A stretch of 64,000 nucleotides of DNA from Pristiophorus japonicus. Its lineage: Eukaryota. Location: NCBI RefSeq assembly GCF_044704955.1, contig NC_091992.1:82646001-82710000 (forward strand). Reading direction: 5' to 3'. Positions 21,653 to 48,321 of the stretch are shown here, one piece after another (the stretch's first letter is position 1; the number at the start of each line of letters is the position of its first letter). The notes beneath the pieces are model-generated. The model had not been told where the DNA came from. It saw nothing but the letters and a program-made list of their open reading frames with translations, and did no database searches. Made by a program: the position numbers and the translations under genes.

Positions 21653-21676
21653 TATATATATATATATATATATATA
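21653..21676. repeat. (TA)n microsatellite
   Basis: Run of TA dinucleotides; similar runs at ~36219-36242 and ~57010-57028. Confidence 0.9.
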
Positions 21677-23010: not shown

Positions 23011-23207
23011 ATGTGTTATGAATGTACTTTTACAAATTGTTTTGTAGGGACATCTCTTTATGTAAGACTGCATATTTTTGTGAAATAGATTTTCTAACTT
23101 TATATGCAAGCACAATGTTGATGCATATTTATTGATACTATTAAATAGTTATAAACTGCTTGTTTTCTTTCTCTCAAGAAGCAGAGTGAAGCAAAGAAAG
23201 TCCTGTA

Positions 23208-26200
23208 ATGGAGTCAGGACAGGACCAGGCGGATGGGTTACATAACAGAAAGGATGACTTAATTAATTTCAGCATCCCTGTGGATTATTCCGTTGATTGC
23301 ACAAGAAATGAAAGAGAAGAGCTACAGGAAAACGACCCTTTAGAACTATTGCATAGTGGGACCATGGATACCCAGTACAGCTTGTGTACTAAAAACGCAG
23401 CTGGTGACCTGGAGACCAACACTGGGCCGACTGTACCTCAGACTGACCTGGTGCACCTGGACGATGCCATCTCAAGTACCACAGTCACTGTCTCTTATGT
23501 CAATCGGCCTCACCTGTTCTCTTCCCAACGGATATTGCAGCATTCCTTGCATGAGCAACCATTGCCATCGCTCTTTATTCCATCTGTTTGTATGCAGTCA
23601 CAGCAGATGTTGCCAGCCTCATTTGATTCATCCATACCTGCTGATTTTGTTGACTCATCATTTGAGAACTCCGTGTTGGCACAGCCTGGTGATTTGGACT
23701 CTATTAGAAGAGGCCTTGAAAATGGAATTGACTGTAGCATTGTGAGCCAGCACAGATTGCAGGTGCTGGACTTAGATTTACCAATAGTTGCTTCTCCTGT
23801 CCATGAACCTGGATCATGTGTTAGGCCACTCGAACCGACATTAGACACTGCAGAGGAAACCTTATATGAAATATCTAGTGCTTCATTTGATGTGGAAATG
23901 CATGACTCTGTGTGCCAGTTTTCTGAAGTAATGCATCAGGAAAGTGAGTGGAGTGATATTGTAAGTCCTGCTGAAACTGTAGTTCAAAACTCTGAAGTGC
24001 TTGTAATAAAACTGACTGGGTCTTCATCGCCAGAGAGCAGACCAAACAACAAGGAACAGTGTGAAAGCAAAAACCTGCTGGGCAGGATGGACCACTGTGA
24101 AACACAAAATGGTACTGGTGTCTTCACTAAAAGCTTAAGTAGCCAGTATACGGAGAGGAAGCTTCAGTCTGTGTGTGACTTAAACAGGAATTACAAAGAC
24201 CAGGCCACAATGACAATAAAAACAGAAAATACCATTGACTTTTTAGAGGCAGCAGTACCAGCTGAATCTGAGGAAAGCCTGAGTGAGGACACTTTTGGAC
24301 AAACATGTCCAAAAGACTTAACAGAAGGGGAGCATAATGTTTCACCAGCTTGTGATAGAAGTAGAGCATCTACAAATTCCATACAACCGTCACAAAGTTT
24401 AATAAATCCAGATGGTTACCAGGGGGCATACACGGAAAGTGTCGGGACCAACATGTCATCAAGTTACAAAGTAGCCCCCAATGCATGTGACCTGCTGCAG
24501 GATTCAGAAGGGAGACGCACTCCAAGTAACATTGCAGTCCTTCAGCATATGCAAAAAACTGATATATTATCACTGCAGGGTACAGAAACTGAAGAGTGGT
24601 CACATGACCCAGAAGTAGCTTTAACATCTGTCCTAAAGAACGAGAAAATGCATTGTTCAGGGTGGGATGCTAAAGGCACCCAAAATAACAGTTCAGTGAA
24701 GGTCAGTTGCAAGTCAGAAGATACCTGTAGTATGGTTTTTCCATGCAGTGGAGATCTGACACCAAATATCCAAGTAACCGAACAGTCTCTGAGTAATGAA
24801 AATAGCTGCAGGGAAGCCCGAAAACAAATTTCTACTCGTGATGCAACCAGACCGAATTTGAAGGAGATCCCTGACTCGGTGCAGGTAGTTAACGATGTGT
24901 GTGAAAACAGCAGAGGTTCAGCTTCATTCAGCAATCAAACGTTTCCTTCCTTGCAGAAGCCATCAGCTACAGAGAGTAACCATCCCAGGATAAAGCCTTG
25001 CTCTCTTGAATTGCATAAACTAAACGTTCTTGAAACGGAGGGGAAATGTGACGTTCGAGGATATGTGTTAGACCTGAAAAGAAATAATGTTGCATCGATG
25101 TCTTGCAGCATTTCTATGAGTCTCTCTCTAGCCAAGTCTGGCAAAAGCGTTGATCATGGAGAGGAGGCAGAGCCTGGTGAGAACTGTGATGGAAATGATG
25201 ACCAGAGCCCCAGTAGTGACAATGTATGCAAAGTTTTGTCTGTCCAGGCAGGGCCACAAATCCCTAACCGGAGAAAGCAGACCTTGGTGGCCAAGTACGA
25301 AGACAGTGAGGTAGTCTGCATCTCTGACGAGGAGATTGTTAGCTGTCCGGTTGCAAAAACTGATGTGCACCAGGACCGAGCTCCAGCTCAGGAGAATAAG
25401 AAACGGAGGACGCCATGTCATCAACACGCGAATCAGAAGAAGTTTGAAGATAGACCGCTCCAAAATGACAGCAGCACTAAGCCCAAGCATTTTGAAAGGA
25501 AGATTCTTCCGCCAAGGCAAAGGGGAATGAGGCTGGAGCAGATCGTGCAAAATATGGTAGCACAGCCCAAGTCAAGAACTCCGAGCGGACTCAGTGAGAG
25601 ACTGAGAAGAAGCAAGGATACACCAACTCCTACTCCCACCAGGTTTCAACCACCAAGGCGCAAATCATCCAGCTCTGTTGCAGAACAGAAGTCCAAGGGC
25701 AGTACTGGGCTCTCTCCTTATGTCCGGGATTCCTCACAAAAAACAATGACTTCGGAATGTAAAATGCAAGAACAGAAAGAAGCAGGCACAATAGCTGCAG
25801 AGAAACCGAACACAAATAAATCTACCTCAATTTCAGGCTCTTGCCATGAACATGCAACAAAACTGAGCACTCCTGTTTCCCCTGCCAAGTCTTTCTGCGG
25901 CACCTCTTCGTCTTCAAAGCAGTTGGTCGAGATCTCCCGGGAGGTGCATACTTCGGGCAGTAAGCAAACGTTCAGCGACCCTGGCCTCAAATGTCTAAAC
26001 GGGAACAGAAGGAAGCAGGCAGCAAATACTAAGAATGCCACGCAGCCGAGGAGGGGGGGCACGGCCAGGAAGAAAATACGGAAACCGGCGGGTAAAAAGC
26101 GGCAGACACAGCGGGGACAGGCCTCGTCATTCTTTGCACCCGAAGAGCCAGAGATAAAACTAAGAGCATTGACTCTTAAGGCCGAGGACCGACGAGATAG

Positions 26201-26867
26201 ATACGATAGTTTTACACCATACGTTCGGGTAGAGGCAAAGGGTTATTCAATGTGTACTGTAGTAAACTATTCTGAAGAGGATAATAACAATCTCAAGCGA
26301 AAGAAACATTCCCAGCGGCAGTCACATGGTGCCGTTCCAAAATCATCTTGCTTGACATTGGGCCCTACAATTAATGAGGCCACTCACAAAAGCTTTCTAG
26401 TCTGCTGTCTTTGCGGCCAGTCTGCAAATGCTATGGAGCAAGGTGATCTTTTTGGACCTTTCTATCCTGGAGGATATACACCTTCAAGTAACCAAACTGC
26501 CCGGTCAAAAGAGGCCAAGATCGAGCAAGCTAGCACCGTTGTCTCCAGCCCTAATTGTACTTCCATTAGGAATGCAGTAAATAAAACTCCAGGACAAAAT
26601 CAGGAATTGAGAACGAGGGAAGGGGCAACAACCCGTGGCCAGAAGCGCAGAAGTTTGGACGGTGTTGAAGAGGCCACGAAATATTCCGATAATAAGAAGC
26701 CGAGGAGTGAGCCATCTTTAGAAGAGTGGTACCAACCCCCATTGGTCCCAATGGACACTAATGAATACTGGATGCATGAAGACTGTGTGACGTGGTGTGC
26801 TGGTGTATTTCTTGTAAGAGGAAAGCTATATGGTTTGCTGGAGGCTATCAATGTTGCACAGGAGACG
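23208..26867 (+). CDS. First, very large coding exon of a RAI1/TCF20-family extended-PHD (ePHD) chromatin-binding protein
   Basis: 1220 uninterrupted codons from GTAATGG (strong Kozak context; in-frame TGA upstream at 23187). Acceptor tttctctcaag at 23178 and donor ACG|GTAAGT after 26867 (phase 0). Family motifs: LPPRQRGMRLEQIVQ (cf. RGLKLEAIVQKI), EPEIKL, FTPYVRV, CCLCG..GDLFGPFYP, EYWMHEDCVTWCAGVFLVRGKLYGL. Confidence 0.92.
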
Positions 26868-29519
26868 GTAAGTAAGACGAGGAATTGTAGTGTATTGTAC
26901 AGGCATTAATCACATTTTCATTGCGGAACATGTAAACCTTATAAATCCTGAGCTTTTGATCTTTAGTGAGGGTGAATAAATGGTCATTTGTTAGGATTTC
27001 AGACTTTCAGAAATGAGCAAGGAGAGGAAAATTACATGTTAACAATCTCTTATTTTCACTTTAATAATTTCAACAGTGCAGGTGGAAATAAGGGTATTTT
27101 TTCTTTTAAAGTTGGGTTTGATTAAAAAGTAGAGCGATCCCAGATCTCCGAACCGTTAATCACCTTGTGTCATAAGATCGAAGGAGGTGTGCTGCAGAGG
27201 TCCAGTAAACTTACATAGCTTGGTTTGCAATTTCCAGTAAGGGAGCTTGGGAAAGGAAAAGAAGACGAACCTGTGGATAACATATAAGTTTCACTTGTAC
27301 ACTAAAATTGGCTAACCCACTTTCAACAACACGGTAGCGTAGTGTGTCGGTACTTAAATGAGAATTTTAAGAAAACCGTGGTTTCAGTTTGGGGCGGGGA
27401 AACTTCCTTTTTGAAATCTCTTTGCCCATTCTACTAGAGCAAATTAAACAAGGTGCAGCTGCATGTTCCCAGTTCCTCACACCCTGACCCCTGGCTGCGC
27501 ATTGTCTTGGGACAGGCTTTGTACGTTTGTTTTACACTCCGATTTCTTGCTGTTCCTGATTCTGAATGCCGAGACCCATGCTGACCCATTGCATTACCCA
27601 GTCCGCCTCCATTTGTTTCTTCCTATAATTTCTCCCATATTCCGTCCCATGCCCAGCTGATTCCAGCCATCTCCCCCATAACTTGCTGCATGGTAATACG
27701 CAAGAACAAGCTGGGTGATTCTCACTTCCACATGCCTGCCCATTACTCCTTGACAGATCTGACGTTGTCTAAATTTGTGCCATCCTGTTTCAATCTACTG
27801 CAGGTGACTAATATTAGCACTAAATATTAACTTAAAATGAATACATTTATTCTGTGAAAGCCTAAAATGGACAGTGTTTGGTACTGCTGAAATACGCAAA
27901 ACTGAATGCTCATTTAAGGTGAGATTATTGCCCAAGAGGTGCATATAGGCGCTGCGTTTTAGGACGAAGCTTATCTTGCATCACATTGTACAATTTTGCA
28001 ATGCAGCTTTTAGTTTAATAGAGTGTAACCATATTGTTACAAACCTTATTTTAAGATTTAGTTATAACAGTTGCTCCTGGTTCTAGTAAGAATTTGATTA
28101 TAGTTAGTACAGGAGCTCAGAACCCGATACGCGGGACACGTGATTAGACTTTGGCAGTCCCACAAGGTTGTTGTAATGAGGCTTGACTGTATTCACTTCT
28201 GTGTCATTGTAATTAAACACAGCCACTAGATCAAATTTATCTCCATTATAGGATTACTGAAGTGCATTTTCAGCAGTCCAGAGGTTAAGTTAGATACATT
28301 TTTTTAACACTTGCATTTTTGATTAGTTAACAAAAGAAATCCTGTGACTCTTGCCATCCTTTCATTTGGATTGCAGAATTTCCTATTCATCATTCTGAGG
28401 ACTTGCATTTCATATGGGCAACAAAGAGTTTGATTTCTAAGGTCTATGACCCACATATGATGAGGGCAGTACATCAGGCTTGTGACTGATCACCCTAATA
28501 GACCAGTAGCAAAATGTATTTTGTGCATATAGCTCTAACCTGCCTTCCAAAATGCTGTTTCACTGATCTGCCCTTGGATATCTCTGATGTTTTATTCCCT
28601 CGTGTTATATCAGTATATGCTCTTAATATTTCCTTTTCAGTGTGGGGTTATTTTCATATCTTCACATTCTTAACAGCCCAGCACGTGAGTGCTCCTGTCA
28701 CGGTGGTAGCCATCTTTATACCGGTCCATAGAGTGGTTAGTCCTAAATGCAGGGAGGGCTCTATGGGGTCCCACGTCCCATATGCGAGGGGGGCCCACTG
28801 AGCCAAAGATTCGCTCCAGTGTATGGTGAGTCACAGCCTCTACAGTTGGTCACCTCTGCATCTTGATTTGGTCTCTGCACATTCCACACTCCTCTTCTCT
28901 GCTGCCCCTTTTGCTCTTTCCAATTTCTCTCTGCATGTTTTTACAATCGCTTGCTTCTCAGCTCTTCCGCAACCCCCCCCAGCCCCTTGCTGCAGAGCTG
29001 AGCTTTTTCACTTTCTCCGCAGAGCCGCCTTTTAGTTTCTGATGGTGATGTATGTTTGCTCTTCTCAATTTAAATGTACAGTAATTAATTTTTATGCATC
29101 ACATAATTCAAGATGTATTCGCTGCCCTGTCACAGCACATCCATCATTGAAGCCATCTTGGTAACAGGTTACATTGAATTTTGGTGATTTTGTTTTGGCA
29201 AAATGGCCTCTTCTCCTCAAACTCTGAAGCAGTTTGTCATATTAATTCAAATAGAAAGCAAAACCAAATGGATTAAAATACAATTTTATAGATGTTTTTT
29301 CCTTGAGCCTCTGTGAAGTGCTTTGAAATGTTCTTTTTACATTAAAGGCACAATATAAATTCAAGTTTTATTTCTATTTAAAATCTATATGGCTAATAAT
29401 TCTAATGTAGCATGTAGCTATAACGTAAGATGAAGAGTAAACCAGTTGAGTGAAATCAAAGTGAACACAGCCAAGCTTTATCACTGCAATCTCATGTGGA
29501 CTGATAGAGACATTTTAGC

Positions 29520-29945
29520 CCCTCCTTTTCCTACCAGTTTTCTCTCTCTGACCTCTGCTGACCTGAAGGCAGTGACTCTTGCTGAGGCAGGGCTCTTATG
29601 GATTCTGGTAGCCGTCGGGTGACTAGTCCACATGGTCATTCTGCCTATGTGAGCCTCGGTACTTCAATGAGCATCAGCAGGCTATTGAAATGTGGAGGGC
29701 TTCACATCTGAGTTTGATCCTATTGTTACCCAAGATCTGCACATCCCAAAGGCGACACTGGATAACCATGACCAGGAACCCTAGCCAGTTTTTTTTTCTT
29801 TTCGTCCTCCCTAAATCTTGGTCCTGAAACCTGAACTATGGTGTGCCTACTACCACTATCCCATCTGAGATCAGATAACGCAGCACGGACAAAGGAATGA
29901 GCCTGGCTCCTTCATAATCTGAATGGCTCAGTGTTTACTGTGCTA
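29520..29945 (-). mobile_element. Ancient tRNA-derived SINE-like repeat
   Basis: Similar to 7280-7535 and 59940-60130; minus-strand head cactgagcca...ccaggctcattcc resembles a decayed tRNA-like head. Confidence 0.45.
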
Positions 29946-30229
29946 ACTACGTAAGCCGTCAGGATGAATGACTGAGTGCTTGTGAATCAGGAGTGTGGAG
30001 GTATGCAAGGAAGCACATGCCATTTAGTATACTGAGGCTGTTGCACAGCTCACGTGCAATATACTCAAATCTGCTGAATGTCCTGTAAAAATGCTCTTTG
30101 GGTTCTTGTTTCCCCTGCCCAAAGGCAGTTGAACAGTACTTCAGAATATCAGTCTCAACTTCCATCCTACGTTATTTAATCCTTGGCCACTTTCCTACCT
30201 TTCCAGCAACCCAGGAGCTATCATGCTCC

Positions 30230-30830
30230 ATGTAGCATTTGATCGCATTGTTCTAACTCTCAATCCCACTCCTAACCAGATAGTCAACCAACCTTTTTTT
30301 TTGATTCCTCTAAGGTGCTAATCCTCTAAACTGTTTTAGCTGCTGTTCCATTCCACATATCTGTTACTCTGGGATAGGGAAAATAATTCTTCCTGATCCT
30401 AAATCTTGCTTGAGGCTTGTTAATTTTGTACCCATGTCAACGTTAAATAGCCTACCTACATCTACATTATTCATTCCTCCCAGCATTTTAAAGATTTGGA
30501 TTATATTTTCTATCAGTTTTCGTTAAGGACCAGCAACCTTTTTCAGTTGCAATTGCGTAATCATTTTGGTCCCTGAAAGAGTTGTTTTTGATCCTAATGC
30601 AGGATTAAAGGTAAACCCGAAATGGATCTGACAAGAAAATGTTTCCTTCTCCGTAGGAAGGACCCAGAGGGTAAAACCTTCAGAGAGACAAAAGAGCCCA
30701 ACCACAGTGTGTTTAACTCTTGCATCTTTATCAGAAACACGATGTGGTTTATAGCAAACAGCCCCAACAGCCCAGCAAAGAGTATTGCTGTACGCAGTGC
30801 TCCAAACCATCAGCAGAATTAACTACTGCA
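30230..30830 (-). mobile_element. Old, heavily decayed CR1-like RT 3' fragment
   Basis: Minus-strand remnant ttggagcactgcgtacag (LEHCVQ, cf. LEYCVQ) and FKML-like remnants. Confidence 0.4.
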
Positions 30831-32374
30831 GTCGTAGCCCGGGAGCTTGTTGTGGCAGGCCTTCAATTGCTTCGCGTCACCTAGCTGCCTCCTGGAATTG
30901 CTGCTTTTTAAAAAAAAAACCAGCATATTACATGTTTATATTTAGGGACGTTGTAATTAAACATTTTAGTCTCTGAAAAAGGCTGACTTGAAATAGCCTG
31001 GAGCTTTTGATTTACTTTTTTGGCAAATTTATGTTTTCATTTTGAATTTCGAAATGAACCTGAAAATGAACATTGACGCCAACGTGGCTGCACTTCAAGG
31101 AGATTACATTATTCCCATGTTGTCTGCACTAGCATCGAAACTGTACAGGGTCTGAAGCCAGTTGAATTATTTAGAGAGCAATTGATTTAAAAGCAAATTA
31201 AGCTACCCGGGAGGGTATTGCTCCTGTAGATAGATTTACCCCAACAGTAATATTCCAGTTTAGACAATAGCTACATTTATTCCTTGTTACTTTAAATCTT
31301 CACAAAGATACTAATATTTTTTTCTCACTTCACTTTAGTATGCATGGTTCTCCCAGTCGACTGCCTGGGCACTCGACCTGCTGTGGGCCTCTGTCGAAGA
31401 TGTTTTTAGTTGCTGCCAGGCGTTTTGTGAAAGCTGTCTGGAGTGATTTCCCCCCCCCCCCCCTCCTTTATGTGTGGTGCCTTCCCTCCCCTGGAGAATT
31501 CTGGCCTTTGTTCAATGCCTATCAATGACAATGCGGCAAAGCTCATTGTTTTAGGAATTGTGGATTTAAAACTGCCTGTTATCAATCCGTGGCATAGTGC
31601 GTTGGAACATTGAGCCACAATTATGATTTCTTGATCTCAAATCTTAGAATATTTCACCTACAGAGACATATTTAAATATTCCTACAAAAAGATGAAATGC
31701 CACCGTCCTGAGCATTTCTTTGACCAAAGTGTGCTTATTCCACTGCAGTGGTGTCATGTGTAATTGACCTGATGTTTTTGTGAAGTGATTAATTCAATGT
31801 CATGTGGGTTGGGAAACAAAACTGTTTGTCGAGCACTTTTGCTTGAAGGTGGTGCCCCTTTAAGTTTGCAGACTAAACATAATTCATAAACATGAGTAGT
31901 CTTCATATCAGACCTGCTGCCACATTGCTGACTGCCACTTCCCAATGCTTTCTAGCATTCATTCATCATTCTTTTGTGATCTCACTTCTTTCTTCTCCCC
32001 TGCTATGTTTATCTGAATTGAATTTTTTTACATTGCAGCTTCTGCTGTTGTACATAAAGCACATTCTATGTCGTGTGTATTTTCCACTGACTTCACCAAA
32101 TTTTTAAAAACTCAATCTTCGTTTTAAATATAAATGCGGTGACTTCATTTGATGCACAGAGCTGGCTGGGTGAGAGAGATTCTCTGTTTCTTACTCAACT
32201 AAGCAAAATAGACCACTTATCTCTGTTTCCTGTATGCCTTGTTCTTGACAACCAAATATTCCAAGTAATTTAACAGGAAAATTTAGTTTAACATGCCACT
32301 TTAATGTCCCCTTGACTCAAAATAGGATAACATCTAGGATTGTTTACTGTGTGTTTTTTTAAATTAAAGTCCTA

Positions 32375-33068
32375 GGCCCCGAAATTGCGCACCGGAGCGG
32401 TACCAGCCGCGAGTTCCTGTGCCAGCTGCGAAAGTCCTGCCCCGCGACCCAAATTCAGGTTACCGCTCCAGAGAGCAAGTGGAGCACAAAATATCGCGCT
32501 CCACTTGCTCAGTGGGGAGGGAGTGGGGCAGAAAGACACCGCGAAGGGCGCAGCGTTTTGCGGTGGGACGGGTAATGCTGCCGCATGTGCAGGGCCCCCC
32601 CCCATCTTCATTAAAGGGGAAGGCCAAGCTGCTGACTCTGCGGGCGGGAAACGGGGCCATCACTGGATCACCACGGAGTGGGGTGCCATGACTGCAAGGT
32701 TGTGGCATGGACCCAGCAATCAAGGACAAAGAAGGCCGCGACTGGTAAGTCGGCCAATTTTTCCTTTACTTTCCCAACCTCCCCTTTAATTATCGCCTGT
32801 GAGCAACCTACAGCCTAGGCTTCAAGGGGATATAGACATGACCCCCTGAAGCTGTTGCGGCTTCAGGTGACGCGACTGAATTTTTGCTCCGGGGTGACAA
32901 TGGGTCGCTGCGCACGGTGATGATGCCATTGCCGCAGAGCAGGGCGCTACTGATTGCCGCTGCTAAAGTCGCATGGAGTTTTGCTGGAGTCGGTAACAGT
33001 GCTGCATCCCGGTGAAAAGTAGTTTACAACTAGTTACGGGAGGCGCAATCAGCCCGAATTTCTCCCCC
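32375..33068. mobile_element. GC-rich non-autonomous Harbinger-like element (MITE)
   Basis: Sharp-edged CpG-rich block with imperfect inverted ends GGCCCCGAAATTG / GGGGGAGAAATTC, resembling the TIR of 59136-63107; no clean TSD. Confidence 0.55.
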
Positions 33069-33164
33069 TTTGTTTTTGGTTTGAATATTTTGTGTTACAG
33101 TGCATTTGTGGGGAATGCAGCAGACTTTTACTCTGCATCGACCTTGCAATGTACCTGCTTAGCC

Positions 33165-35362
33165 ATCACCAATTCTCTCCGCATCCCCTTGCAGAATGTT
33201 CATTGCTTGCGAACATGGCCCTTGTCATCCATGAACTTATCGTGGATGATTGCATCGACATCATGGCCTAGACGGAAACTTAGCTGAGGGACGATGACGC
33301 CTTACCTTTAAACAATGTCTCCCTGCCTGGCTGTACCTTCCACCACACTGAGATGGCAGTGTGGCTCTCATCACCAAATCATACCTTGGTCTGTACTCCT
33401 ACTCCTCCGGCATTTTCTGCTCCTTTGAACATCTCGCCTTATTTCACCCCTCACATTTAAAATTCTTGTTCTCTGCTGCTCACCGAAGTATGATAAAAAT
33501 TTTAGCACCGTGATATCTTCACTGCTTTTCTCCCTTGGCCTCTGCTCTGAGCGACTTTTCATCCTCGGTGATTTCAATCTCCATCTCAATTCATCATGCT
33601 CTCTCTCATCTGAGCTCACTACCCTCCTATCCTCCCATAATCTCTAATCTCTCCCTCCATTTGAACTCCCCAACCCATATTCACAGCCACCCCCTTGACT
33701 TTGCCATCTCTCTTGACCTCGCTATTCCTACCGTGTCACTTGCAGATAAGGCTATCCCTGACCATTTCCTTGTATCGCTCTCCACCCACATCCCGCTCTC
33801 CACCCACATCCCCCTCCCCCCACCCGACCCTACTTCCTTCTGCGTCCGCCCCTGGAAAAAAAACTCTCCAAACTCTCTTACAACTGCACTTATCAACTCC
33901 AACCTGTCCAGCCTTTGGCCCTCCATTCCATTCACCATGACATTTCTACAGCCACCTACTTCTCCAGGACACCCTCACCACCACTTTTGATGCCCTAGTC
34001 CCTATTAAAACCATTACTATCTCTCATCCTGGCCATTCCCCCTGGTATGGGCCTCATCTTCGCTCCCTCAAGTCCAAGGGGCGCAGACTTGGATGGATGT
34101 GGAGGACAACTGGTTTAGCCATTCACCGTTTTCAACCTGTCTGCAGCCTTTGACACGGTTGACCACTCCATCCTCTTCCAACTCCTCTCCACCATTGTCC
34201 AGCTGGGTGTCAGACTGCACTCGTCTGGTTCCATTCTTAACTTTCTAATAGCCAGAAAATAAACCTGCAAGGGCTTCTCTTCCCACTCTCGCATCGTTAC
34301 CTCTGGAGTCCCCAAGGATCTATCCTTGGCCCCCTCTTATTTTTCATCTAAATGCTGCCTCTTGGCGACATCATCCGAAAACACAGCGTCAGTTTCCACA
34401 TGTACTCTGACGACACCCAGCTCTACTTCACCACCACTTCTCTCCACCCCTCCACGGTCTGTAAATTGTCAGAATGCTTGTCTGACATCCAGCACTGGAT
34501 GAGCAGAAATTTTCTCCAATTAAATATTGGGAAGACCGAGCCATTGTCTTTGGTCCCTGCCGCAAACTGCATTCCCTGGCCACTGACTCTATCCCTCTCC
34601 TTAGCATCTGTCTGAGGCTGAACCAGATTGTTCGCAACCTAGGTGTCATATTTGACCCTGAAATGAGCTTCCGGCCACTTATCCGCTGCATAACTAAAAT
34701 CGCCGATTTCCACCTCCGTAACATCGCGGGTCTCCGCCCCTTGCCTCAGCTCATCTGCTGCTGAAACCCTCATCCATGTCTTTGTTACCTCTAGACTTGA
34801 CTTCTCCAATGCACTCCTGGCTGGCCTCCCACATTCTACCCTATGTAAACTTGAGGCCATCCAAAACTCGACCGCCCGTGTCCTAACTCGCACCAAGTCC
34901 CGTTCACCCATCACCCCTGTACTCACTAACCTACATTGCTCCTGGTTAAACAATGTCTTGATTTCAAAATTCTCATCCTTGTTTACAAATCCTTCCACGG
35001 CCTCGCCCCTCCCTAGCTCTGTAATCTACTTCAGCCTCACAACCCCCCGAGGTATCTGTGCTCCTCAAATTCTGCCCTTTTGAGCATCCCTGATTATAAT
35101 CGCTCAACCATCGGTGGCCGTGCCTTCAGCTGTTTGGGACCGAAGCTCTGGAACTCCCTGCCTAAACCTCTCCGCCTCGCTACCTCTTCTTTCCTCCTCA
35201 AGAAGCTTCTTAAAACCTACCTCTTTGACCAAGCGGCTGGTCACTGCCATAATTACTTCTAATGTGACTTGGTGTCAAATCTTTTTTGTCTTGTTAACAC
35301 TCCTGTGAAGTGCTTTGGGACGTTTTGCTCCGTAAAGGCGCTATATAAATGCAAGTTGTTGA
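33165..35362 (+). mobile_element. L2 LINE, decayed with internal deletion (endonuclease + RT + tail)
   Basis: Endonuclease remnants (ILGDFNLHLN, PDHFLV), RT FHMYSDDTQLY, FVTSRLD, tail aaggcgctatataaatgcaagttgttg. Confidence 0.88.
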
Positions 35363-37864: not shown

Positions 37865-38130
37865 AGAGCAGCAGACGCATGGGAACACCGCTACCTCCAC
37901 GTTTCCTTCCAAGTCACACACCATCCTGATTTGGAATTATATCACCGTTCCTTCATCGTCGCGTGGTCAAAATCGTGGCACTCCCTCCCTAACAGTGCCG
38001 TGGGAGTATCTTCACCACATGGACTGCAGCGGTTCAAGAAAGTGGCTTACCGCCATCTTCGCAAGGGTGATTAGGGATGGGCAATAAATGCTGGCTTGCT
38101 AGTGACGCCCATATCCCGTGAACAAATTTT
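37865..38130 (+). mobile_element. LINE 3' fragment
   Basis: KSWHSLPNSAVG...LQRFKKVAYRHLRKG* followed by the shared gggatgggcaataaatgctgg tail. Confidence 0.7.
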
Positions 38131-38179
38131 TAAAAATCCACCAAACATGACGCATGTTCTCCCATTGAGATTAAAATGA

Positions 38180-38502
38180 AACTGAAAAAGGAGGCTTATG
38201 AGGTTCACAATATGGTAGAAAATCGAGCAGAATACAGAAAGTGTCGAGGACTGAAAAGGGAATTAAGAGGGGATAACAGTGTATAGGCGGGTAACATAGT
38301 CAAAAGGGGGTGGGGCTGATTAGAGACCAAAAAGGATATGGTCTTGTGGAGGCAGAGGGCATAGCTGAGGTACTAAATGAGCACCTTCACAAAAGAAGAG
38401 GACGCTGCCAATATCACAGAAGGGAGTAAGGAAATTGGATAGGATAAAAATAGAGGAGGTATTTGAAAAGGTTGGCAGCAGTCAAAGTGGAAAAGTCACC
38501 TG
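38180..38502 (+). mobile_element. Decayed internal CR1 ORF2 fragment
   Basis: Remnants of AEVLNE...FTKEEDA and K.DKSP (gctgaggtactaaatgag..ttcacaaaagaagaggac..aaaagtcacc). Confidence 0.55.
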
Positions 38503-38858
38503 TGGAAGGAGGAAAGAAGCTTTCTGCTCATCGAATTCTTCCTTACAAAGCAGTCCCCCAATTTAACTGTGTACTCACTCAGTGTGGGTATCATTTACCA
38601 GTACACAAAATGGAATTGGGTGCAAATCTCTAATGTTTTTATATCCCAGCATTGCTGCTTGTTTTCCAGCCATAAGTGTGTTTATCTTTTTGAATCATTC
38701 ATGGATTATCCCAAAATATAAGATTCAGTGATAATCAGATCCATTTGACTCCATTTTCTGAATCTAAGGTAGATAATGGTAGGACATCAATGTAATTAGA
38801 TTATACAAGCAGACTAATGGCAATTACTTTACTCCCTCCAAACCATATTGGGTGTTAA

Positions 38859-41800
38859 ATAGAAACATAGAAAATAGGTGCAGGAGCAGGCCATTCAGCC
38901 CTTCTAGCCTGCACCGCCACTCAATGAGTTAATGGCTGAACATGAAACTTCAGTACCCCCTTCCTGCTTTCTCGCCATACCCTTTGATCCCCCGAGTTGT
39001 AAGGACTTCATCTAACTCCCTTTTGAATATATTTAGTGAATTGGCCTCAACTACTTTCTGTGGTAGAGAATTCCACAGGTTCACCACTCTCTGGGTGAAG
39101 AAGTTTCTCCTCATCTGGGTCCTAAATGGCTTACCCCTTATCCTTAGACTGTGACCCCCGGTTCTGGACTTCCCCAACATTGGGAACATTCTTCCTCCAT
39201 CTAACCTGTCTAAACCCGTCAGAATTTTAAATGTTTCTATGAGGTCCCCTCTCATTCTTCTGAACTCCAGTGAATACAAGCCCAGTTGATCCAGTCTTTC
39301 TTGATAGGTCAGTCCCACCATCCCGGGAATCAGTCTGGTGAATCTTCGCTGCACTCCCTCAATAGCAAGAATGTCCTTCCTCAAGTTAGGAGACCAAAAC
39401 TGTACACAATACTCCAGGTGTGGCCTCACCAAGGCCCTGTACAACTGTAGCAACACCTCCCTGCCCCTGTACTCAAATCCCCTCGCTATGAAGGCCAACA
39501 TGCCATTTGCTTTCTTAACCACCTGCTGTACCTGCATGCCAACCTTCAATGACTGATGTACCATGACACCCAGGTCTCGTTGCACCTCCCCTTTTCCTAA
39601 TCTGTCACCATTCAGATAATAGTCTGTCTCTCTGTTTTTACCACCAAAGTGGATAACCTCACATTTATCCACATTATACTTCATCTGCCATGCATTTGCC
39701 CACTCACCTAACCTATCCAAGTCACTCTGCAGCCTCATAGCATCCTCCTCGCAGCTCACACTGCCACCCAACTTAGTGTCATCTGCAAATTTGGAGAGAC
39801 TACATTTAATCCCCTCGTCTAAATCATTAATGTACAATGTAAACAGCTGGGGCACCAGCACAGAACCTTGCGGTACCCCACTAGTCACTGCCTGCCATTC
39901 TGAAAAGTACCCATTTACTCCTATTCTTTGCTTCCTGTCTGACAACCAGTTCTCAATCCACGTCAGCACACTACCCCCAATCCCATGTGCTTTAACTTTG
40001 CACATTAATCTCTTGTGTGGGACCTTGTCGAAAGCCTTCTGAATGTCCAAATATACCACATCAACTGGTTCTCCTTTGTCCACTTTACTGGAAACATCCT
40101 CAAAAAATTCCAGAAGATTTGTCAAGCATGATTTCCCTTTCACAAATCCATGCTGACTTGGACCTATCGTGTCACCATTTTCCAAATGCGCTGCTATGAC
40201 ATCCTTAATAATTGATTCCATCATTTTACCCACTACTGAGGTCAGGCTGACCGGTCTATAATTCCCTATTTTCTCTCTCCCTTCTTTTTTAAAAAGTGGG
40301 GTTACATTGGCTACCCTCCACTCGATAGGAACTGATCCAGAGTCAATGGAATGTTGGAAAATGACTGTCAATGCATCCGCTATTTCCAAGGCCACCTCCT
40401 TAAGTACTCTGGGATGCAGTCCATCAGGCCCTGGGGATTTATCGGCCTTCAATCCCATCAATTTCCCCAACACAATTTCCCGACTAATAAAGATTTCCCT
40501 CAGTTCCTCCTCCTTACTAGACCCTCTGACCCCTTTTATATCCGGAAGGTTGTTTGTGTCCTCCTTGGTGAATACCGAACCAAAGTACTTGTTCAATTGG
40601 TCTGCCATTTCTTTGTTCCCCGTTATGACTTCCCCTGATTCTGACTGCAGGGGACCTATGTTTGTCTTTACTAACCTTTTTCTCTTTATATACCTATAGA
40701 AACTTTTGCAATCCGCCTTAATGTTCCCTGCAAGCAGCTTCTCGTACTCCATTTTCTCTGCCCTAATCAAACCCTTTGTCCTCCTCTGCTGAGTTCTAAA
40801 TTTCTCCCAGTCCCCGGGTTCGCTGCTATTTCTGGCCAATTTGTATGCCACTTCCTTGGCTTTAATACTATCCCTGATTTGCCTGGATAGCCACGGTTGA
40901 GCCACCTTCGCTTTTTATTTTTACGTCAGACAGGAATGTACAATTGTTGTAGTTCATCCATGCGGTCTCTAAATGTCTGCCATTGCCCATCCACAGTCAA
41001 CCCCTTAAGTATCATTCGCCACTCTACCCTAGCCAATTCACGCCTCATACCTTCAAAGTTACCCTTCTTTAAGTTCTGGACCATGGTCTCTGAATTAACT
41101 GTTTCATTCTCCATCCTAATGCAGAATTCCACCATATTATGGTCACTCTTCCCCAAGGGGCCTCGCACAATGAGATTGCTAATTAATCCTCTCTCATTAC
41201 ACAACACCCAGTCTAAGATGGCCTCCCCCCTAGTTGGTTCCTCGACATATTGGTCTAGAAAACCATCCCTTATGCACTCCAGGAAATCCTCCTCTACCGT
41301 ATTGCTTCCAGTTTGGCTAGCCCAATCTATGTGCATATTAAAGTCACCCATTATAACTGCTGCACCTTTATTGCATGCACCCCTAATTTCCTGCTTGATG
41401 CCCTCCCCAACATCACTACTACTGTTTGGAGGTCTGTACATAACTCCCACTAACGTTTTTTGCCCTTTGGTGTTCTGCAGCTCTACCCATATAGATTCCA
41501 CATCATCCAAGCTAATGTCTTTCCTAACTATTGCATTAATCTCCTCTTTAATCAGCAATGCTACCCCACCTCCTTTTCCTTTTATTCTATCTTTCCTGAA
41601 TGTTGAATACCCCTGAATGTTGAATACCCCTGGATGTTGAGTTCCCAGCCCTGATCATCCTGGAGCCACGTCTCTGTAATCCCAATCACATCATATTTGT
41701 TAACATCTATTTGCACAGTTAATTCATCCACCTTATTGCGGATACTCCTTGCATTAAGACACACAGTTTTCAGGCTTGTTTTTTTTTAACACCCTTTGTC

Positions 41801-42685
41801 CTTTTAGAATTTTGCTGTACAGTGGCCCTTTTTGTTCTTTGCCTTGGGTTTCTCTGCCCTCCACTTTTCCTCATCTCCTTTCTGTCTTTTGCTTTTGCCT
41901 CCTTTTTGTCTCCCTCTGTCTCCCTGCATTGGTTCCCATCCCCCTGCCATATTAGTTTAACTCCTCCCCAACAGCACTAGCAAACACTTCCCCTAGGACA
42001 TTGGTTCCGGTCCTGCCCAGGTGCAGACCGTCTGGTTTGTACTGGTCCCACCTCCCCCAGAACTGGTTCCAATGCCCCAGGAATTTGAATCCCTCCCTGC
42101 TGCACCACTGCTCAAGCCACGTATTCATCTGCGCTATCCTGCGATTCCTACTCTGACTAGCACGTGGCACTGGTAGCAATCCCAAGATTACTACTTTTGA
42201 GGTCCTACTTTTTAATTTAGCTCCTAGTTCCTTAAATTCGTTTCGTAGGACGTCATCCCTTTTTTTAACCTATGTCGTTGGTACCAATGTGCACCACGAC
42301 AACTGGCTGTTCTCCCTCCCTTTTCAGAATGTCCTGCACCCGCTCCGAGACATCCTTGACCCTTGCACCAGGGAGGCAACATACCATCCTGGAGTCTCGG
42401 TTGCGGCCGCAGAAGCGCCTATCTATTCCCCTCACCATTGAATCCCCATCACTATCGCTCTCCCACTCTTTTTCCTGCCCTCCTGTGCAGCAGAGCCAGC
42501 CACGGTGCCATGAACTTGGCTGCTGCTGCCTTCCCCTGATGAATCATCCCCCCCCAACAGTACTCAAAGCGGTGTATCTGTTTTGCAGGGGGATGACCAC
42601 AGGGGACCCCTGCACTACCTTCCTTGCACTACTCTTCCTGCTGGTCTTCCATTCCCTATCTGGCTGTGGACCCTTCTCCTGCGGT
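38859..42685 (-). mobile_element. CR1 LINE (same family as 10684-14935), 5'-truncated within ORF1
   Basis: 651-aa RT ORF 38950-40905 (KFADDTK), endonuclease ORFs 40926-41764, esterase ORF1 remnants, (TTTCTATG) tail. Confidence 0.95.
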
Positions 42686-44532
42686 AGGAGGAAATATTTA
42701 CCAAGTTAAATGGTGCAAATTGAATGCCAGACTGGGTTCCAGAATTTGGCAAACAATCTGCTCCCTTTCATTGACCCTTTAGCTGACCCCTCAATCTTTA
42801 GCTCTCTTTCCCAACTACCTTCTAGTAAAACCAACCCCCTCTAGTTTTTTATGATAAATCTATTCTACAGGATACAAGAGAACCAATAGCTGAACATGGG
42901 TGTGAACATGGGGTCGTACCATTGAAAGAGAGGTAACTTTTCCATACTTGTCTTGATCCTAGAAGTCCAAAGGAGAAACTTGTACTCCAATGTGCAATGC
43001 ATTGAGGCTGACATTACCATGTTGTATGTCTGCTCCTTCCTCTCCATTTAAACAGGGGAGGGGGTGAAGGTTTGCGTCTCTTCATATCGCCAGTCGCATA
43101 AACCCACAACCTCCGGTTTGGCCCCCTAACCCTGTATCCTGCTATTTTTCTTACTCCCAAAAGTCTTGCTCACGGAGGGTTGACGTTTCTGCCTTCTGTG
43201 AAAATGATAGGTCATCTGCATATGGAGTTGGCCTGTAGGATACTTCCCTTGATCGAAGGTCTTGTATTCCGGGGTCTGTTCTAGGTGCTCCTCTCAGTGA
43301 CCTGATGGCCAGAAGAAAATTGGTGCTAAAGGGTTTGCAAGTCTAGTGCCCCTGACACTCTTAAAGGGGGCAAGAGAAAGGCATTCTGCTACTGTGAGTG
43401 GTGTAAATAGTCTATCCACCTGAAGGAAGGGCAGAGTACAACTTGTGTTCTGTTCAATGAGATGCCTCTTTACAACCAGTTACTGGATCTCATTCTTCTT
43501 CTGCTCTATAAACACAAAATACTAGTCTGATTTATTAGAATATATTCTAGCTTGAGTAAAGTTTTCATTCATCCTGAGTGGTTGAGACGGAGACCATTGC
43601 ATCTTTTTTTTTAAAGTAGACAAATATTTGAAGCAGAGGAAGTTAAAGGGCGGTGGGAAAGGAGCAGGGCGGTGGGAAAGGAGCAGGGCGGTGGAATTGG
43701 TTTGGATTGATGTAGCAAAGAGTTGGTACTGATCCATGGGGACAAATGGTCGCCTTCTGTGCTGTTATTCTAAGGGCATCATTCACTAAGCTGAAGCAGA
43801 CTCCAAACTGAGAAAATCAGTGGCTTATGTTCACTGTAATGATATTTTCCATCAGTACTTTGTCCCACAGAAACGGGGATAACTTTCGCAATACTTACTG
43901 TTCTGCATTCTCCAAACTGTAGAAACAATGCAAAATATTTGTAAACACCAAAAAAACAATTTCTGGGGGCAAACAAGTTAGCAAGCTGACAGAAAGCTGT
44001 ATTTGTAACATTGGATTATGTTTTTTAAATGCATGGAAACTTGGCTAGAATGTTTATTTTTTGCAAACCTGCAGCCATATCCTTTATTTTTCACCAATGA
44101 TCCCAAGTCTTTTAATAAAACATGTTGAACAGGTTCATGTATATTCCTCTCGTTTACCAAGTTAGATCGGCTTGTGGTAGTGCAGCTGCCTTGATGCTCT
44201 AACAATTAGCAGAGAACTGATGTCTCAACTTGTTAGACCTGTCAAGCCAAACTGCCAACACATGAACTGGAAGACTATCTTGTGTCTGAGAAACCGATAA
44301 ATAAAGGGAAATGGAAGGGAAACCAAATTTTAATGTGATTTTTAAGAATTCAATTTAATTAATTGATTTCTACGTTCTAAACATGGGACATAGGTTTTCT
44401 TTTGGTGAGTATGTCACTGAACACATTACATGCCCATTGGGTTGATGCGATGATTGATGTCTTGGCAGCTTTGTTGGATTGCTGCAATGTGATGTGCTGC
44501 TAATGTGTCACAAAACAAAATCAGATGATTGT

Positions 44533-44690
44533 AGAAAATAGGAGCAGGAGTAGGCCATTGGCCCCTCAAGCCTGTTCAGTCATTCAATAAGATCATGGTT
44601 GATCTGAACTTGGGCTCCACTTCTCTACCCACTCCCCATAACCCTTCACTCCCTTATTGTTCCAAAATCTGTCTATCTTCTCCTTAAATG
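44533..44690 (-). mobile_element. CR1 3'-tail fragment
   Basis: aaataggagcaggagtaggccatt...ccccataacccttcac tail shared with other copies. Confidence 0.7.
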
Positions 44691-44818
44691 AGAAGAGTTA
44701 ACAGTGCAGCTGTTTACTCCCTGCAAATTTCTATCCTGATTTATACACCCCTTTCAGTAGTGCCTCGGGATGAAGTATCTTTTTGTTGAGGTGGGGGGGT
44801 AGTTTGAAAAGAGTTGTA

Positions 44819-45143
44819 CAGGTTAAACCTCTCTTATCCGGCACCCTTGGGACCTGGCCTGTGCCAGATAAGGGATTTTGCCGGGGGGGGGGGGGCACGT
44901 TAAATTGGATAGTACAGGGACTGGGCAGGGGGATATTGGGGCTGGGAGTGCGTCAGGGAGGTTGTGGGGGGTGGGGGTGAGGCGGTGGATCGCGGGGTCA
45001 GGCCAGTGATTGCGGGAGTCGGCAACGAGGAAGGACTTCAATTTGTTCAAGCCGGAGTTCTGTGCATGCGCCACCCGGTGGCCGGGAATGGTCCGGAAGA
45101 GGGGTGGTGCCAGATAAGGGAGCCCGGATGGGAGGTTCAACAG
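44819..45143. mobile_element. Tigger-like MITE
   Basis: TA-preceded CAGGTTAAACCTC..ATCCGG with inverted CCGGAT..GAGGTTCAAC at the right end; internal gtgccagataaggga repeated. Confidence 0.55.
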
Positions 45144-45481
45144 GTCATGTAACTTGCATTGTTTGAAGTCCCTCAATCAGGTGAAATAACAGCGAAAGTC
45201 ACATTTTTAAAAATACATTCTATCCAGGGAGACTTTAGAGGTCCTCCCAGCACAGCTGTTTTTTTTTTGCCTCTCAGCATCAGGTATGGCAGCAAGTGAC
45301 TCGTGTATTGGAACAAGCCCCGCTGTGCCTTCCCTTGAGGTTTCAGAGAATCAGTACAGTGGAAGAATTGTGAAATCTGGTTGTGCTGTCCTGTAAGATT
45401 TTACCTAACTTGTACTTTTATTTCTGTGAAATGCCGTTTTGTTTTGCAAAAGTCTTTCTGACGTTGACCTTGTTTCTACAG

Positions 45482-45575
45482 CTCTGTTCCATGTGTCAGA
45501 GAACTGGTGCCACTCTAGGCTGCTACATTAAAGGCTGCCCTCTTAAGTACCACTATGCCTGTGCTGTAGATAGTA
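45482..45575 (+). CDS. 94-bp coding exon of the RAI1/TCF20-like gene (PHD finger)
   Basis: Acceptor ttgtttctacag and donor A|GTGAGT. Encodes [31 protein letters not shown] in frame with the large exon, matching the CxxC...GATLGC...C...YHY.CA PHD pattern. Confidence 0.93.
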
Positions 45576-47416
45576 GTGAGTATCTCTTCAGTTATTTTTG
45601 GTTATGATCAAGAAGGTAAAATGTTTGTGGAGTTGTGTACAGACCTTTGCTTTACGATGAAGTAGCTTTTTGATTGTTACATAATTAAATATGAAGAGCT
45701 GAATACAACCATTTTGTTCCCTGCAAATAATGATCTCGCTGTGGTAATGCTTTCTGCATTGGAAAGGACACTGGTGATTTAAATTGATGAACACTAGTGC
45801 CATGTGAGCCAGTAAAAGTAATTACCCAATTTTATTCTGGGACCACACTCCCCTGATAATTCAAAGTCATTTATTTTGCACCCCCACAAATTTGAATTAT
45901 CTAGAAATTCAAATGAAGCAATTGTATTAGAATGGCCTTTAGCATAAATCGAATTATTCAAATTAACAGGAATGGGCTGTGTATAATTTATTCCATCATT
46001 TTAAATAATGTTCAGGTTCAATTTGATGTAACTGTGGAAGTAGTGCAAAGCGGAGTCAGTATTTGCTGAAGCCCATCGAGCTGCTTAACACTAGTTTGAA
46101 GTACTGGGTCGTTGCTGCCTTGTTTAGTATATGGGTACTAATATGCTTCAGGCAGAATTGTACTTACGCCAATGTACTTTCATGGTGTGCGATATGTTCT
46201 TGTGTGATACTGTTAATTCATCACCTCTTTGTTCTCACCATTGCCCCATCAGCAAAGACAAGTCAGTACTTCATCCTAGTGTTCGACAGCTCAAAAATGT
46301 TCTCTCCAGACACCGCCCCAATTTAGACAAACAAGACTTGCAGTTGTATGGCTGGCTATGGTGAACCTCGTATGATAATTTCATATTCCCATTGCACTGT
46401 GCTGAAATCTCTGACAATGCTGATAAGATGTATATTCAATTCCCTAGATGAATTAATCATTTTTTGGGGAGTGTATGGGTTAGGAGAAGAATAGAAAGGG
46501 CAAAGGAGGCGGGCGGTGGAATTTTCTTCAGTGACACACAGGAAAAAGCAATTAAAGCACAGCGAGAGAGCTTGGTCCTGTACTGAAAGGCTCTGCATTG
46601 TCCCAGTAGGCTGGTGAATGGTTAATGGGATCTGTCAGCCGATAGTGTTTGATGCATTGGCTGATGGATCCATTATCCTGCTATTGACCTTTATGTACTG
46701 AAGACTTCTCATGTTACGAAAAACTGTGGTGTCATTGCTTTTTTTCCCTCTTAAAAGGGGAAGGAAAGTATAGCAGCCGAGCACATCATCACATTAATGC
46801 ACTAAAAATCATCCGTTATAACCAGCAGCACAGACAGATGATTGCCAGCAGTTTAGGGAGGAAAACTTGAGTTGCCTTCCCGTAATAAACATCACCATAA
46901 CTATGGTGTCACCAAATTAAATGGCAGCACCAAAGCCAACAGTGATAGGACATTTATGTGGGCAAGTGTGCTTGTTCCTGGGTTGTCGTTCCTCTTTAAA
47001 TGGAATTATGACACAATGCTCATTATTATAACCATTGTCACTTGCTATTGGTTCCAGGTTATAGAATCTTACAGCACAGAAGGAGGCCTCTTGGCCCGTC
47101 GTGCCAGTGCCGGCTCTTTGAAAGAGCTGTCCAATTAGTCCCAATTCTTGGGTATTGATTAAAGAATATGGGAATGAAGCTGGCAAATTACTATTCAAAA
47201 ATAAGTATGCGGTTGGATGTTGTGTTTGCATTACCAGAGTCTGAGTTAACAGTGCTTGCACATCCAATGGTGGAGCGGTGATTGTTATCCACTGCTAGGG
47301 GTCTCGCAGTCTATGTTTTGAGTCTTTGTTAATTGGGTTTAAATTGATTTCTGCTGTCTGAATGTGTAATTAAAAGTGAGGAATCCTGGTTGACCTGCAT
47401 TTGCTCTTTATTCCAG

Positions 47417-47466
47417 AATGTTTCCTAAATGAAGATAATTTCTCAATGAAATGTACAAAACACAAG
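47417..47466 (+). CDS. 50-bp coding exon of the RAI1/TCF20-like gene (end of PHD finger)
   Basis: Acceptor ctctttattccag and donor AAG|GTAC; phase-compatible with the previous exon. Encodes (K)CFLNEDNFSMKCTKHK, cf. EENFS.(K/R)CPKHK in RAI1/TCF20. Confidence 0.92.
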
Positions 47467-48321
47467 GTACAGCAATAGTACATCTTTATATTTCCGAAAT
47501 CTTTTACCATGTACAAGTTGTGCATTCATTTGATCAATTTTCAGAGATCAAATCTTAATGCTTTTCACACATTTGTTAATTTTTTTTGTCAACCAGTATG
47601 TAGACAGATTGTGTGCGGTAACAATCACTGTCAGATATCCTTATCGTTCTGATTTGCTGTCACATTCACGGGTTCCCGCTCATGGAAAATATATGTAAAA
47701 GTTATGCCCAATATACTGTATGCCAGGTTTAATTATATTTTTAATAAGTAACACGGCTATATAAATATTAAAAACAATTAAATGGTTAGAAATGCTTAGT
47801 GAAGATCTCATCTCCTGATTCAGATGATAAATTGCTCTTGTTGGTTTACGATGACCTTTGAACCACTTACTGAGATGGTTTCTCTGTGATCCATTGTTAT
47901 TTTCTACCTACGATAGTAACACCTCCCAGCATTATTGTTTGCTAATTTTTATGTGACACAGAAACATTGAACATCTAGTCGTCGGAAAGTCCGTCTAACT
48001 GATGGCATGCAATTGGTGGTGATTATTTAGATAAGTTTTAAAATCAGCAGCAGTGTGACCTCAGTTTTAATTGGAATTCCATGTCTGCGGATATCTTTAT
48101 CCAGTCAGCGACTTGCTGAATTGTTGCTGGGAAACAAACATAGTTTTAAACATCATATACAATCTGGCTGCAAATCATGTCTGCGCATGTGCTGGGGTAT
48201 ACTTCCCTGGCCTTGTTGAATTTTGTTTTGTAGGGAGAGGAGAGAAATCTGTACTTGCTACTTTTGTTTAGCACGCAAACAATTTTCTGCCACTCCCTTA
48301 AATTTTTAACTTTGTTTCAAT

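What the first reader, a model, noticed from the sequence alone, without database searches (positions are those of the whole stretch)
23179..47478. Probable third RAI1/TCF20 paralogue with a replaced, shorter N-terminus
Seen: ~1270 codons to the end of the PHD, a start ATG preceded by an in-frame TGA (23187) inside the same exon, and an acidic, non-conserved-looking N-terminus (MESGQDQ...). Recalled knowledge: RAI1 and TCF20 are ~1900 aa, start MQSFRE, and share RGLKLEAIVQKI, EPEI(K/R)LKY, a split ePHD and small 3' PHD exons. All the C-terminal hallmarks are here, but not the N-terminal region or an obvious GRP AT-hook, and the PHD mixes RAI1-like and TCF20-like residues. Inference: an uncharacterised whole-genome-duplication paralogue with no mammalian counterpart that I know of, possibly a nucleosome reader lacking the canonical activation domain.
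Basis: partly seen in the sequence, partly recalled or inferred. Interest (0 to 1): 0.7.

Follow-up and report, generated by a model that had tools for sequence, protein, structure and literature searches.

The report
Third RAI1/TCF20 gene kept in fishes
Sharks, ray-finned fish, coelacanth and lungfish carry a third, spliced relative of the human neurodevelopmental-disease genes RAI1 and TCF20, likely lost in four-limbed vertebrates; it keeps their chromatin-binding end but has a different front end, and likely acts as an alternative subunit of the same chromatin complex.

Summary
Confirmed, with corrections. The window (a shark) holds a five-exon gene: one non-coding 5' exon and four coding exons giving 1281 aa. 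Spliced transcript contigs put the TGA in the 5' UTR, so no upstream exon supplies an MQSFRE start. The genome has separate RAI1 (C15, beside an SREBF-type exon) and TCF20 (C19) loci, and one neighbouring gene family has copies near all three. The protein falls in a third clade (100/99) with chimaera, coelacanth, lungfish and ray-finned members; AU tests reject placement inside RAI1 or TCF20. It is the orthologue of zebrafish-named si:dkey-94l16.4, often mislabelled TCF20 or RAI1, and no paper on it was found. No tetrapod member turned up in capped protein searches. The C-terminal module is intact (12 zinc ligands; 64 of 67 RAI1/TCF20-conserved sites). The Q/Y-rich N-terminal two-thirds is not detectable; an acidic region with its own conserved motif stands there, so it is not 'non-conserved'. 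Function is inferred: a nucleosome/PHF14-binding adaptor with a different effector arm. A real but familiar kind of finding: a whole-genome-duplication paralogue apparently lost in tetrapods.

The parts
19991..20587 (+). 5' non-coding exon in a CpG-rich stretch; holds four upstream ATGs (three close before the main start, one out-of-frame uORF of 26 codons overlaps it)
   Evidence: transcript contigs X18 (19991-20587), X19 (from 20061) and X20 lie here with 0 mismatches; the X18 and X19 records are the ones that continue into 23182; GT donor at 20588; CpG scan; uORFs
23182..26867 (+). large exon: 26 nt of 5' UTR with in-frame TGA at 23187, ATG at 23208, codons 1-1220
   Evidence: junctions 20587/23182 and 26867/45482 in contigs
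23460..23522 (+). clade-specific N-terminal motif, aa 85-105 (DDAISSTTVTVSYVNRPHLFS), predicted disordered; likely a short linear binding motif
   Evidence: alignment shark to teleost, coelacanth, lungfish; conservation peak; pLDDT under 50 in the paddlefish orthologue model
25521..25553 (+). RGMRLEQIVQN box (RAI1/TCF20 RGLKLEAIVQKI box)
26043..26049 (+). site where all four laid transcript sets carry 39 more bases (13 codons) than the window, flanked by a 7-base direct repeat
   Evidence: table 5c; 9 of the 10 other shark/ray orthologues shown carry about 11-13 extra residues here, one (Pristis) only about 8
26074..26400 (+). basic stretch, EPEIKL and FTPYVRV/CTVVN block: counterpart of the RAI1/TCF20 nucleosome-binding region
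   Evidence: alignment; region definition from PMC3799622; boundaries approximate
26403..26867 (+). split ePHD: ligands 1-2 (CCLC), 120-aa loop ending in a clade-specific EEWYQPPLVP motif, ligands 3-4 (WMHEDCVTW)
   Evidence: Pfam PF13771/PF13832 over cut-off on the full protein
45482..45575 (+). coding exon 2 (94 nt), PHD ligands 5-10
   Evidence: 5' junction in transcript contigs; same intron positions and phases as the genome's RAI1
47417..47466 (+). coding exon 3 (50 nt), PHD ligands 11-12

Best explanation
This is a spliced third member of the RAI1/TCF20 family (orthologue of si:dkey-94l16.4), likely born in the early vertebrate genome duplications and likely lost in tetrapods, that likely binds nucleosomes and the PHF14-HMG20A complex through its conserved C-terminal module and would bring a different, acidic N-terminal arm in place of the Q/Y-rich activation region. 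Shown: gene structure, splicing of the first two introns, third clade, triplicated neighbourhood, intact ePHD, absence of the RAI1/TCF20 N-terminal boxes and AT-hook, a conserved new N-terminal motif. Inferred: origin by whole-genome duplication, loss in tetrapods, replacement (rather than primitive absence) of the N-terminus, and every binding step. The swap would have happened inside the one large exon, since the start codon and 3' introns are laid out as in RAI1.
For: Clade of 11 rows at 100/99 whose inner order follows the species tree; AU rejection of RAI1 and TCF20 membership; three family loci in this genome. One exon of the downstream PH/coiled-coil gene has three copies among 8 candidates scored, 0.1 Mb from this gene, 0.67 Mb from RAI1 and 3.9 Mb from TCF20. 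A T-type calcium channel exon 100 kb upstream has its paralogue on C15, and VHS genes lie on all three contigs; CACNA1 and TOM1 are among the families of a described 2R paralogon (PMC3560075, passages). 64 of 67 sites conserved in at least 15 of 17 RAI1/TCF20 rows are kept; the module is predicted to fold like PZP/ePHD domains. RAI1 ePHD binds the PHF14 PZP domain, and cross-links to PHF14-HMG20A map to the C-terminal region of TCF20/RAI1 (10.1101/2021.10.12.462922); the homologous region binds nucleosomes in RAI1 and TCF20 (PMC3799622). RAI1/TCF20 N-terminal profiles hit 0 of 23 third-clade proteins.
Against: No binding, localisation or transcription assay exists for this protein, and the PHF14 interface is not mapped, so conserved sites may only hold the fold. 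The clade has 17 specific substitutions in the module, which could change partners. Which of RAI1 or TCF20 is its sister is unresolved (p 0.11 and 0.15), and RAI1 itself had only 75/76 support. The RAI1/TCF20 N-terminal profiles also miss all invertebrates tested (7 of 7), so replacement rests on composition and on one unnamed lineage (P0132). Tetrapod absence rests on capped protein searches; no tetrapod genome was searched.
Confidence: 0.55

Rival explanations
1. Same origin, but the protein works as a competitor: it occupies the RAI1/TCF20 slot on PHF14-HMG20A or nucleosomes with no activating or condensate-forming arm and so damps RAI1/TCF20 output.
For: Q/Y-rich prion-like start and AT-hook are absent; RAI1 and TCF20 may be mutually exclusive subunits; one teleost duplicate (si:ch211-165g14.1 type) is about 700 aa and lacks even the LEAIVQ box in 3 of 3 examined.
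Against: The N-terminal motif has been kept from sharks to teleosts, coelacanth and lungfish, which argues for a partner of its own; acidic regions with hydrophobic residues often activate (general knowledge).
Confidence: 0.2
2. Same origin, but it has left the PHF14 complex and reads chromatin or binds a different partner through its altered ePHD and new motifs.
For: 17 clade-specific sites in the module, including a Trp motif before ligand 3; only 35-47% identity to RAI1/TCF20 over about 247 core columns; ePHD-type folds serve other complexes.
Against: It keeps 64 of 67 sites shared by RAI1 and TCF20, which are about as far from each other in the tree and both bind PHF14.
Confidence: 0.2
3. 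It is a diverged RAI1 or TCF20 orthologue, a lineage-specific duplicate, or an incomplete gene model.
For: Many database entries of this clade are named transcription factor 20 or retinoic acid-induced protein 1; this genome's TCF20 has a frameshift.
Against: AU tests; separate RAI1 and TCF20 in this genome and in coelacanth and lungfish; spliced non-coding 5' exon.
Confidence: 0.03

Closest known systems
RAI1 (Smith-Magenis syndrome gene)
   Same: LE.IVQ box, EPEI.L/nucleosome-binding block, split ePHD with long loop, 3' introns at the same positions and phases, start codon near the 5' end of one huge exon, no AT-hook.
   Different: No match to the first ~1250 aa; acidic rather than Q/Y-rich start; separate clade and chromosome; 35-43% identity over the core.
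TCF20/SPBP
   Same: Same C-terminal module, 43-47% identity over the core.
   Different: Lacks the GKK[KR]GRP AT-hook (13 of 13 TCF20 have it; this protein does not), the ER[KR]SVICD box (12 of 13 TCF20) and the N-terminal boxes.
si:dkey-94l16.4 (and teleost duplicate si:ch211-165g14.1)
   Same: This is its shark orthologue: records so named from sawfish, chimaera, coelacanth and teleosts fall in the same clade.
   Different: Only a clone-based name; no text found that describes it.
Invertebrate single-copy genes (CG5098-like, echinoderm and mollusc PHD proteins)
   Same: Split ePHD; outgroup to all three vertebrate clades.
   Different: Q/Y-rich, low-acid N-terminus (D+E 3.9%) like RAI1/TCF20 and unlike this clade.

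Membership tests
RAI1/TCF20 (SPBP) family | ePHD with 12 Cys/His ligands and a loop over 100 aa between ligands 2 and 3 (PMC3799622) | tested here: met
   CCLC, HEDC, CSMC, CYIKGC, HYAC, CTKH; loop 120 aa; Pfam PF13771/PF13832
RAI1/TCF20 (SPBP) family | Trp two before ligand 3 and Trp three after ligand 4 (PMC3799622) | tested here: met
   WMHEDCVTW
RAI1/TCF20 (SPBP) family | Conserved nucleosome-binding region before the ePHD | tested here: met
   sequence block aligns; binding itself untested
RAI1/TCF20 (SPBP) family | Clade with RAI1 and TCF20 to the exclusion of invertebrate genes | tested here: met
   100/99
RAI1/TCF20 (SPBP) family | Conserved N-terminal boxes and Q-rich transactivation region, ~1900 aa | tested here: not met
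   0 of 23 third-clade proteins hit; six-frame window best E 0.76. Shared by the two known paralogues; invertebrate members miss these profiles too
RAI1 orthologues | Groups with RAI1 and lies beside SREBF1/TOM1L2 | tested here: not met
   AU p 1e-40; the SREBF-type bHLH exon and a VHS gene lie beside the C15 gene instead
TCF20 orthologues | Groups with TCF20; AT-hook present | tested here: not met
   AU p 1e-5; no AT-hook; C19 gene groups with TCF20
PHF14-HMG20A complex subunits | C-terminal ePHD binds PHF14 PZP | not testable with these tools

The most novel reading that the evidence does not exclude
Jawed vertebrates began with three, possibly four (P0132 lineage), RAI1/TCF20 genes; the third swapped its whole effector arm within one exon and gives fishes a PHF14-HMG20A complex of a kind that tetrapods lost, wired through an undescribed N-terminal motif to a different cofactor, and able to buffer or oppose rai1/tcf20 in zebrafish disease models.
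Probability: 0.35. Interest if true: 0.62.

Novelty: new variant of a known kind. Interest (0 to 1): 0.42.

Why it matters
The one phylogenetic study found describes two vertebrate genes only (PMC3799622), and its selection used protein size, which would drop most members of this clade. A third gene changes the family's history and offers a natural experiment: the same chromatin-binding end with another front end, useful for separating what the ePHD and the Q/Y-rich region each do. In practice, fish records of this clade are often named TCF20 or RAI1, so expression and knockout studies in fish can be assigned to the wrong gene, and teleosts carry two further copies that could mask phenotypes in Smith-Magenis or TCF20-syndrome models. 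Paralogues kept in fishes and lost in tetrapods are a familiar pattern, which limits the surprise.

Tried and rejected
Upstream coding exon with an MQSFRE start: rejected. Mouse LOC105590, Apodemus and Otolemur short proteins as mammalian orthologues: they nest in mammalian TCF20; the Nomascus fragment P0291 was not put in a tree. A fourth copy in this genome: a search with the P0132-type C-terminus found only the three loci with both halves of the ePHD; four further hits (C36, C5, C2713, C11) cover the PHD core only and were not examined. Resolving the sister group: neither RAI1+third nor TCF20+third is rejected. MFS-type gene fused to one teleost model (P0177) as a synteny marker: its match is on C15 at 111.7 Mb, not informative. 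ESM Atlas on residues 1-135: no usable hit, which shows nothing. Run search: no RNA holder listed on record; the contigs were judged RNA-derived from their splice joints. Laying 2000-21500 was swamped by repeats apart from the 5' exon. Pfam on the large exon alone gave 0 families because the PHD is split. The names MPRIP/TRIOBP for the downstream gene are recalled; tools showed only a PH exon (E 3.5e-5, just under cut-off) and coiled-coil exons. No complex prediction was run. Two look-ups in earlier findings returned nothing.
Full report
Observation. The + strand holds an open frame of 1239 codons at 23190-26909, with ATG at 23208 and an in-frame TGA at 23187. Joining 23208-26867, 45482-45575, 47417-47466 and 57440-57481, all with AG/GT ends, gives 1281 aa identical to stored protein P0002, whose source label names a sawshark and calls it 'serine-rich adhesin for platelets'. 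That record may derive from the same assembly and is not independent support. The two 3' introns compared sit at the same positions and phases as in this genome's RAI1, as does the end of the large exon.

Transcripts. No run was on record as RNA, but contigs of 4 of 4 laid runs (X18, X19, X20, and X1 from a related organism; two studies) stop at the exon ends and continue with the next exon's letters at 26867 and with a 5' piece at 23180. That piece maps to 20562-20587; the same X18 record covers 19991-20587 without mismatch. The junction is 20587/23182. The 623-nt leader has four upstream ATGs; the only one in frame with the main start closes after 12 codons. So the TGA lies in the 5' UTR and MESGQDQ is the start, which agrees with orthologue starts (METGQDQ, MEPPPPDQ, METPAPEQ, MEAAEDQ).

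Three loci in this genome. A search with the C-terminal 247 aa matched this gene, C15:177.89 Mb and C19:70.21 Mb (28 candidates scored). C15 starts MQSFRD in an 1878-codon frame; C19 starts MQSYRE and has a frameshift near codon 1340. An SREBF-type bHLH exon lies 48 kb and a VHS gene about 108 kb beyond the C15 gene, the arrangement recalled for RAI1-SREBF1-TOM1L2; the exact pattern found no such exon on C19. Around the window gene lie an adrenodoxin reductase exon, the last exon of a T-type calcium channel closest to alpha-1G about 100 kb upstream, and a PH/coiled-coil gene downstream (the name MPRIP-like is recalled). One exon of that gene has three matches among 8 candidates: C16:82.77, C15:178.57 and C19:74.07 Mb, that is, near each of the three family members. 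The channel exon has a paralogue on C15. CACNA1 and TOM1 are among the families analysed for a 2R paralogon in PMC3560075 (passages only; RAI1, TCF20 and MPRIP do not occur in its main text). Origin by genome duplication is inferred from this and from the tree.

Phylogeny. Three homologue searches (289 hits, 120 listed; 115 of 115; 99 of 99) and one profile search (1581 hits, 150 listed) gave relatives from sharks, rays, chimaera, bichir, sturgeons, gar, bowfin, teleosts, lungfish and, after look-up, coelacanth. A careful tree of 36 chosen rows and 249 columns gives the third clade 100/99, TCF20 100/99 and RAI1 75/76, and the third clade's inner order follows the species tree. Forcing the window protein into RAI1 or TCF20 is rejected (p 1e-40, 1e-5); the groups had been chosen from earlier trees. 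Which is the sister is open. Teleosts have two copies, named si:dkey-94l16.4 and si:ch211-165g14.1; 49 of 159 rows were dropped from the tree by a motif filter and were read separately. Of 396 proteins sorted by best match to 45 references, only two coelacanth isoforms and one unnamed lungfish-like protein matched the lobe-finned members best. Named tetrapod hits were TCF20, RAI1 or short TCF20-derived copies. Loss in tetrapods is therefore likely (my estimate about 0.8) but rests on capped searches.

Anatomy. The C-terminal module is whole: 12 ligands, both diagnostic Trp, a 120-aa loop, Pfam zf-HC5HC2H over cut-off, and 64 of 67 sites conserved in at least 15 of 17 RAI1/TCF20 rows; 17 sites are specific to the clade. 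A model of the paddlefish orthologue, used because the window protein exceeds the length limit, is confident only over about 641-735 and 821-915 (mean pLDDT 50.6) and matches JADE1/BRPF1 PZP and PHF6 ePHD. Profiles of the RAI1/TCF20 N-terminal 650 and about 1250 aa hit held-out RAI1/TCF20 and P0132 but 0 of 23 third-clade proteins and none of the invertebrates tested. The first 300 aa average 13.6% D+E, 6.2% Q, 2.0% Y in the third clade, against 5.6/14.9/7.5 in RAI1, 4.2/16.2/6.5 in TCF20 and 3.9/10.5/5.4 in 7 invertebrates. The third clade has its own motif near residue 85-105; its profile hits the 21 proteins it was built from, one of two held-out teleost duplicates weakly, and 0 of 26 RAI1/TCF20. 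The TCF20 AT-hook (13 of 13) is absent; 2 of 23 third-clade proteins have an RGRP elsewhere. Because invertebrates and P0132 resemble RAI1/TCF20 at the N-terminus, replacement in the third lineage is the simpler reading, but homology does not prove the direction.

Mechanism. [quoted passage not shown] RAI1 ePHD needs the PHF14 PZP domain to bind, bound no histone tails in that study, and cross-links to PHF14-HMG20A lie at the C-terminus; RAI1 and TCF20 have prion-like N-termini and may be exclusive subunits (10.1101/2021.10.12.462922, passages and section 9; reviews PMC11728296 and PMC13541444, passages). The third protein keeps the part that docks and lacks the part that activates or condenses. 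I infer an alternative subunit of the PHF14-HMG20A complex with another effector arm (0.55), against a competitor (0.2) or a protein with new partners (0.2). That it is a true third paralogue I put at about 0.95.

What is known. PMC3799622 reports two vertebrate clusters and selected on size; its supplement lists two zebrafish and two coelacanth proteins, TCF20- and RAI1-sized (term search). Full-text searches for the clone names gave 0 relevant papers, and searches joining RAI1/TCF20 with shark, ohnolog or fish-specific terms listed none on a third gene (listings only). Subscription journals, bioRxiv supplements and gene-tree databases were not covered, and supplementary tables of genome papers may list the gene. 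It is present in sequence databases, often under the names TCF20 or RAI1.

Verdict. Real, correctly read in the main by the first stage, undescribed as far as these searches reach, and of a familiar evolutionary kind with one unusual trait, the exchanged N-terminal arm. Interest 0.42.

Noticed in passing
window 26043-26049: Transcript contigs that are otherwise identical to the window carry 39 extra bases here, between two copies of a 7-base repeat, and most other sharks have the 13 residues; the window holds either a deletion allele or an assembly slip.
   Followed up: partly
L006:7099-7147 (G000:C19, TCF20): The genome's TCF20 has a frameshift in a GC-rich stretch near codon 1340; both sides are well conserved, so an assembly error is likely.
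   Followed up: partly
protein P0132 (unnamed, 1815 aa; cluster of 4): A vertebrate-type family member outside RAI1, TCF20 and the third clade, with RAI1/TCF20-type N-terminal boxes and an RGRP; could be a fourth duplicate or a jawless-fish gene. Weakly joined to the third clade (74/48).
   Followed up: partly
G000:C15:177.89 Mb (P0150) and other records: The RAI1 protein of this genome and of several sharks is labelled 'transcription factor 20', as is bichir's third-clade protein P0030 beside its true TCF20.
   Followed up: yes
proteins P0281, P0282, P0284: Short mammalian proteins (mouse LOC105590 and others) hold only the TCF20 C-terminal module and nest inside mammalian TCF20; likely retrocopies that also lack the activation region.
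   Followed up: partly
window 20571-23245: An out-of-frame upstream ORF of 26 codons spans the first junction and overlaps the main start; the related organism's contig has one base fewer here, so it may not be conserved.
   Followed up: partly
window 6100-19500 and 38950-41650: Several LINE-type reverse transcriptase and endonuclease remnants upstream and in the long intron.
   Followed up: no
G000:C16 about 82,594,900-82,601,300 (45-51 kb before the window): Broken open frames resembling gag, pol and env of an endogenous retrovirus on the minus strand (resemblance judged by eye).
   Followed up: no
window 60764-61657 (-): A 297-codon acidic open frame with no Pfam match, in a CpG-rich, partly repeated stretch past the last exon; probably transposon-derived.
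   Followed up: no
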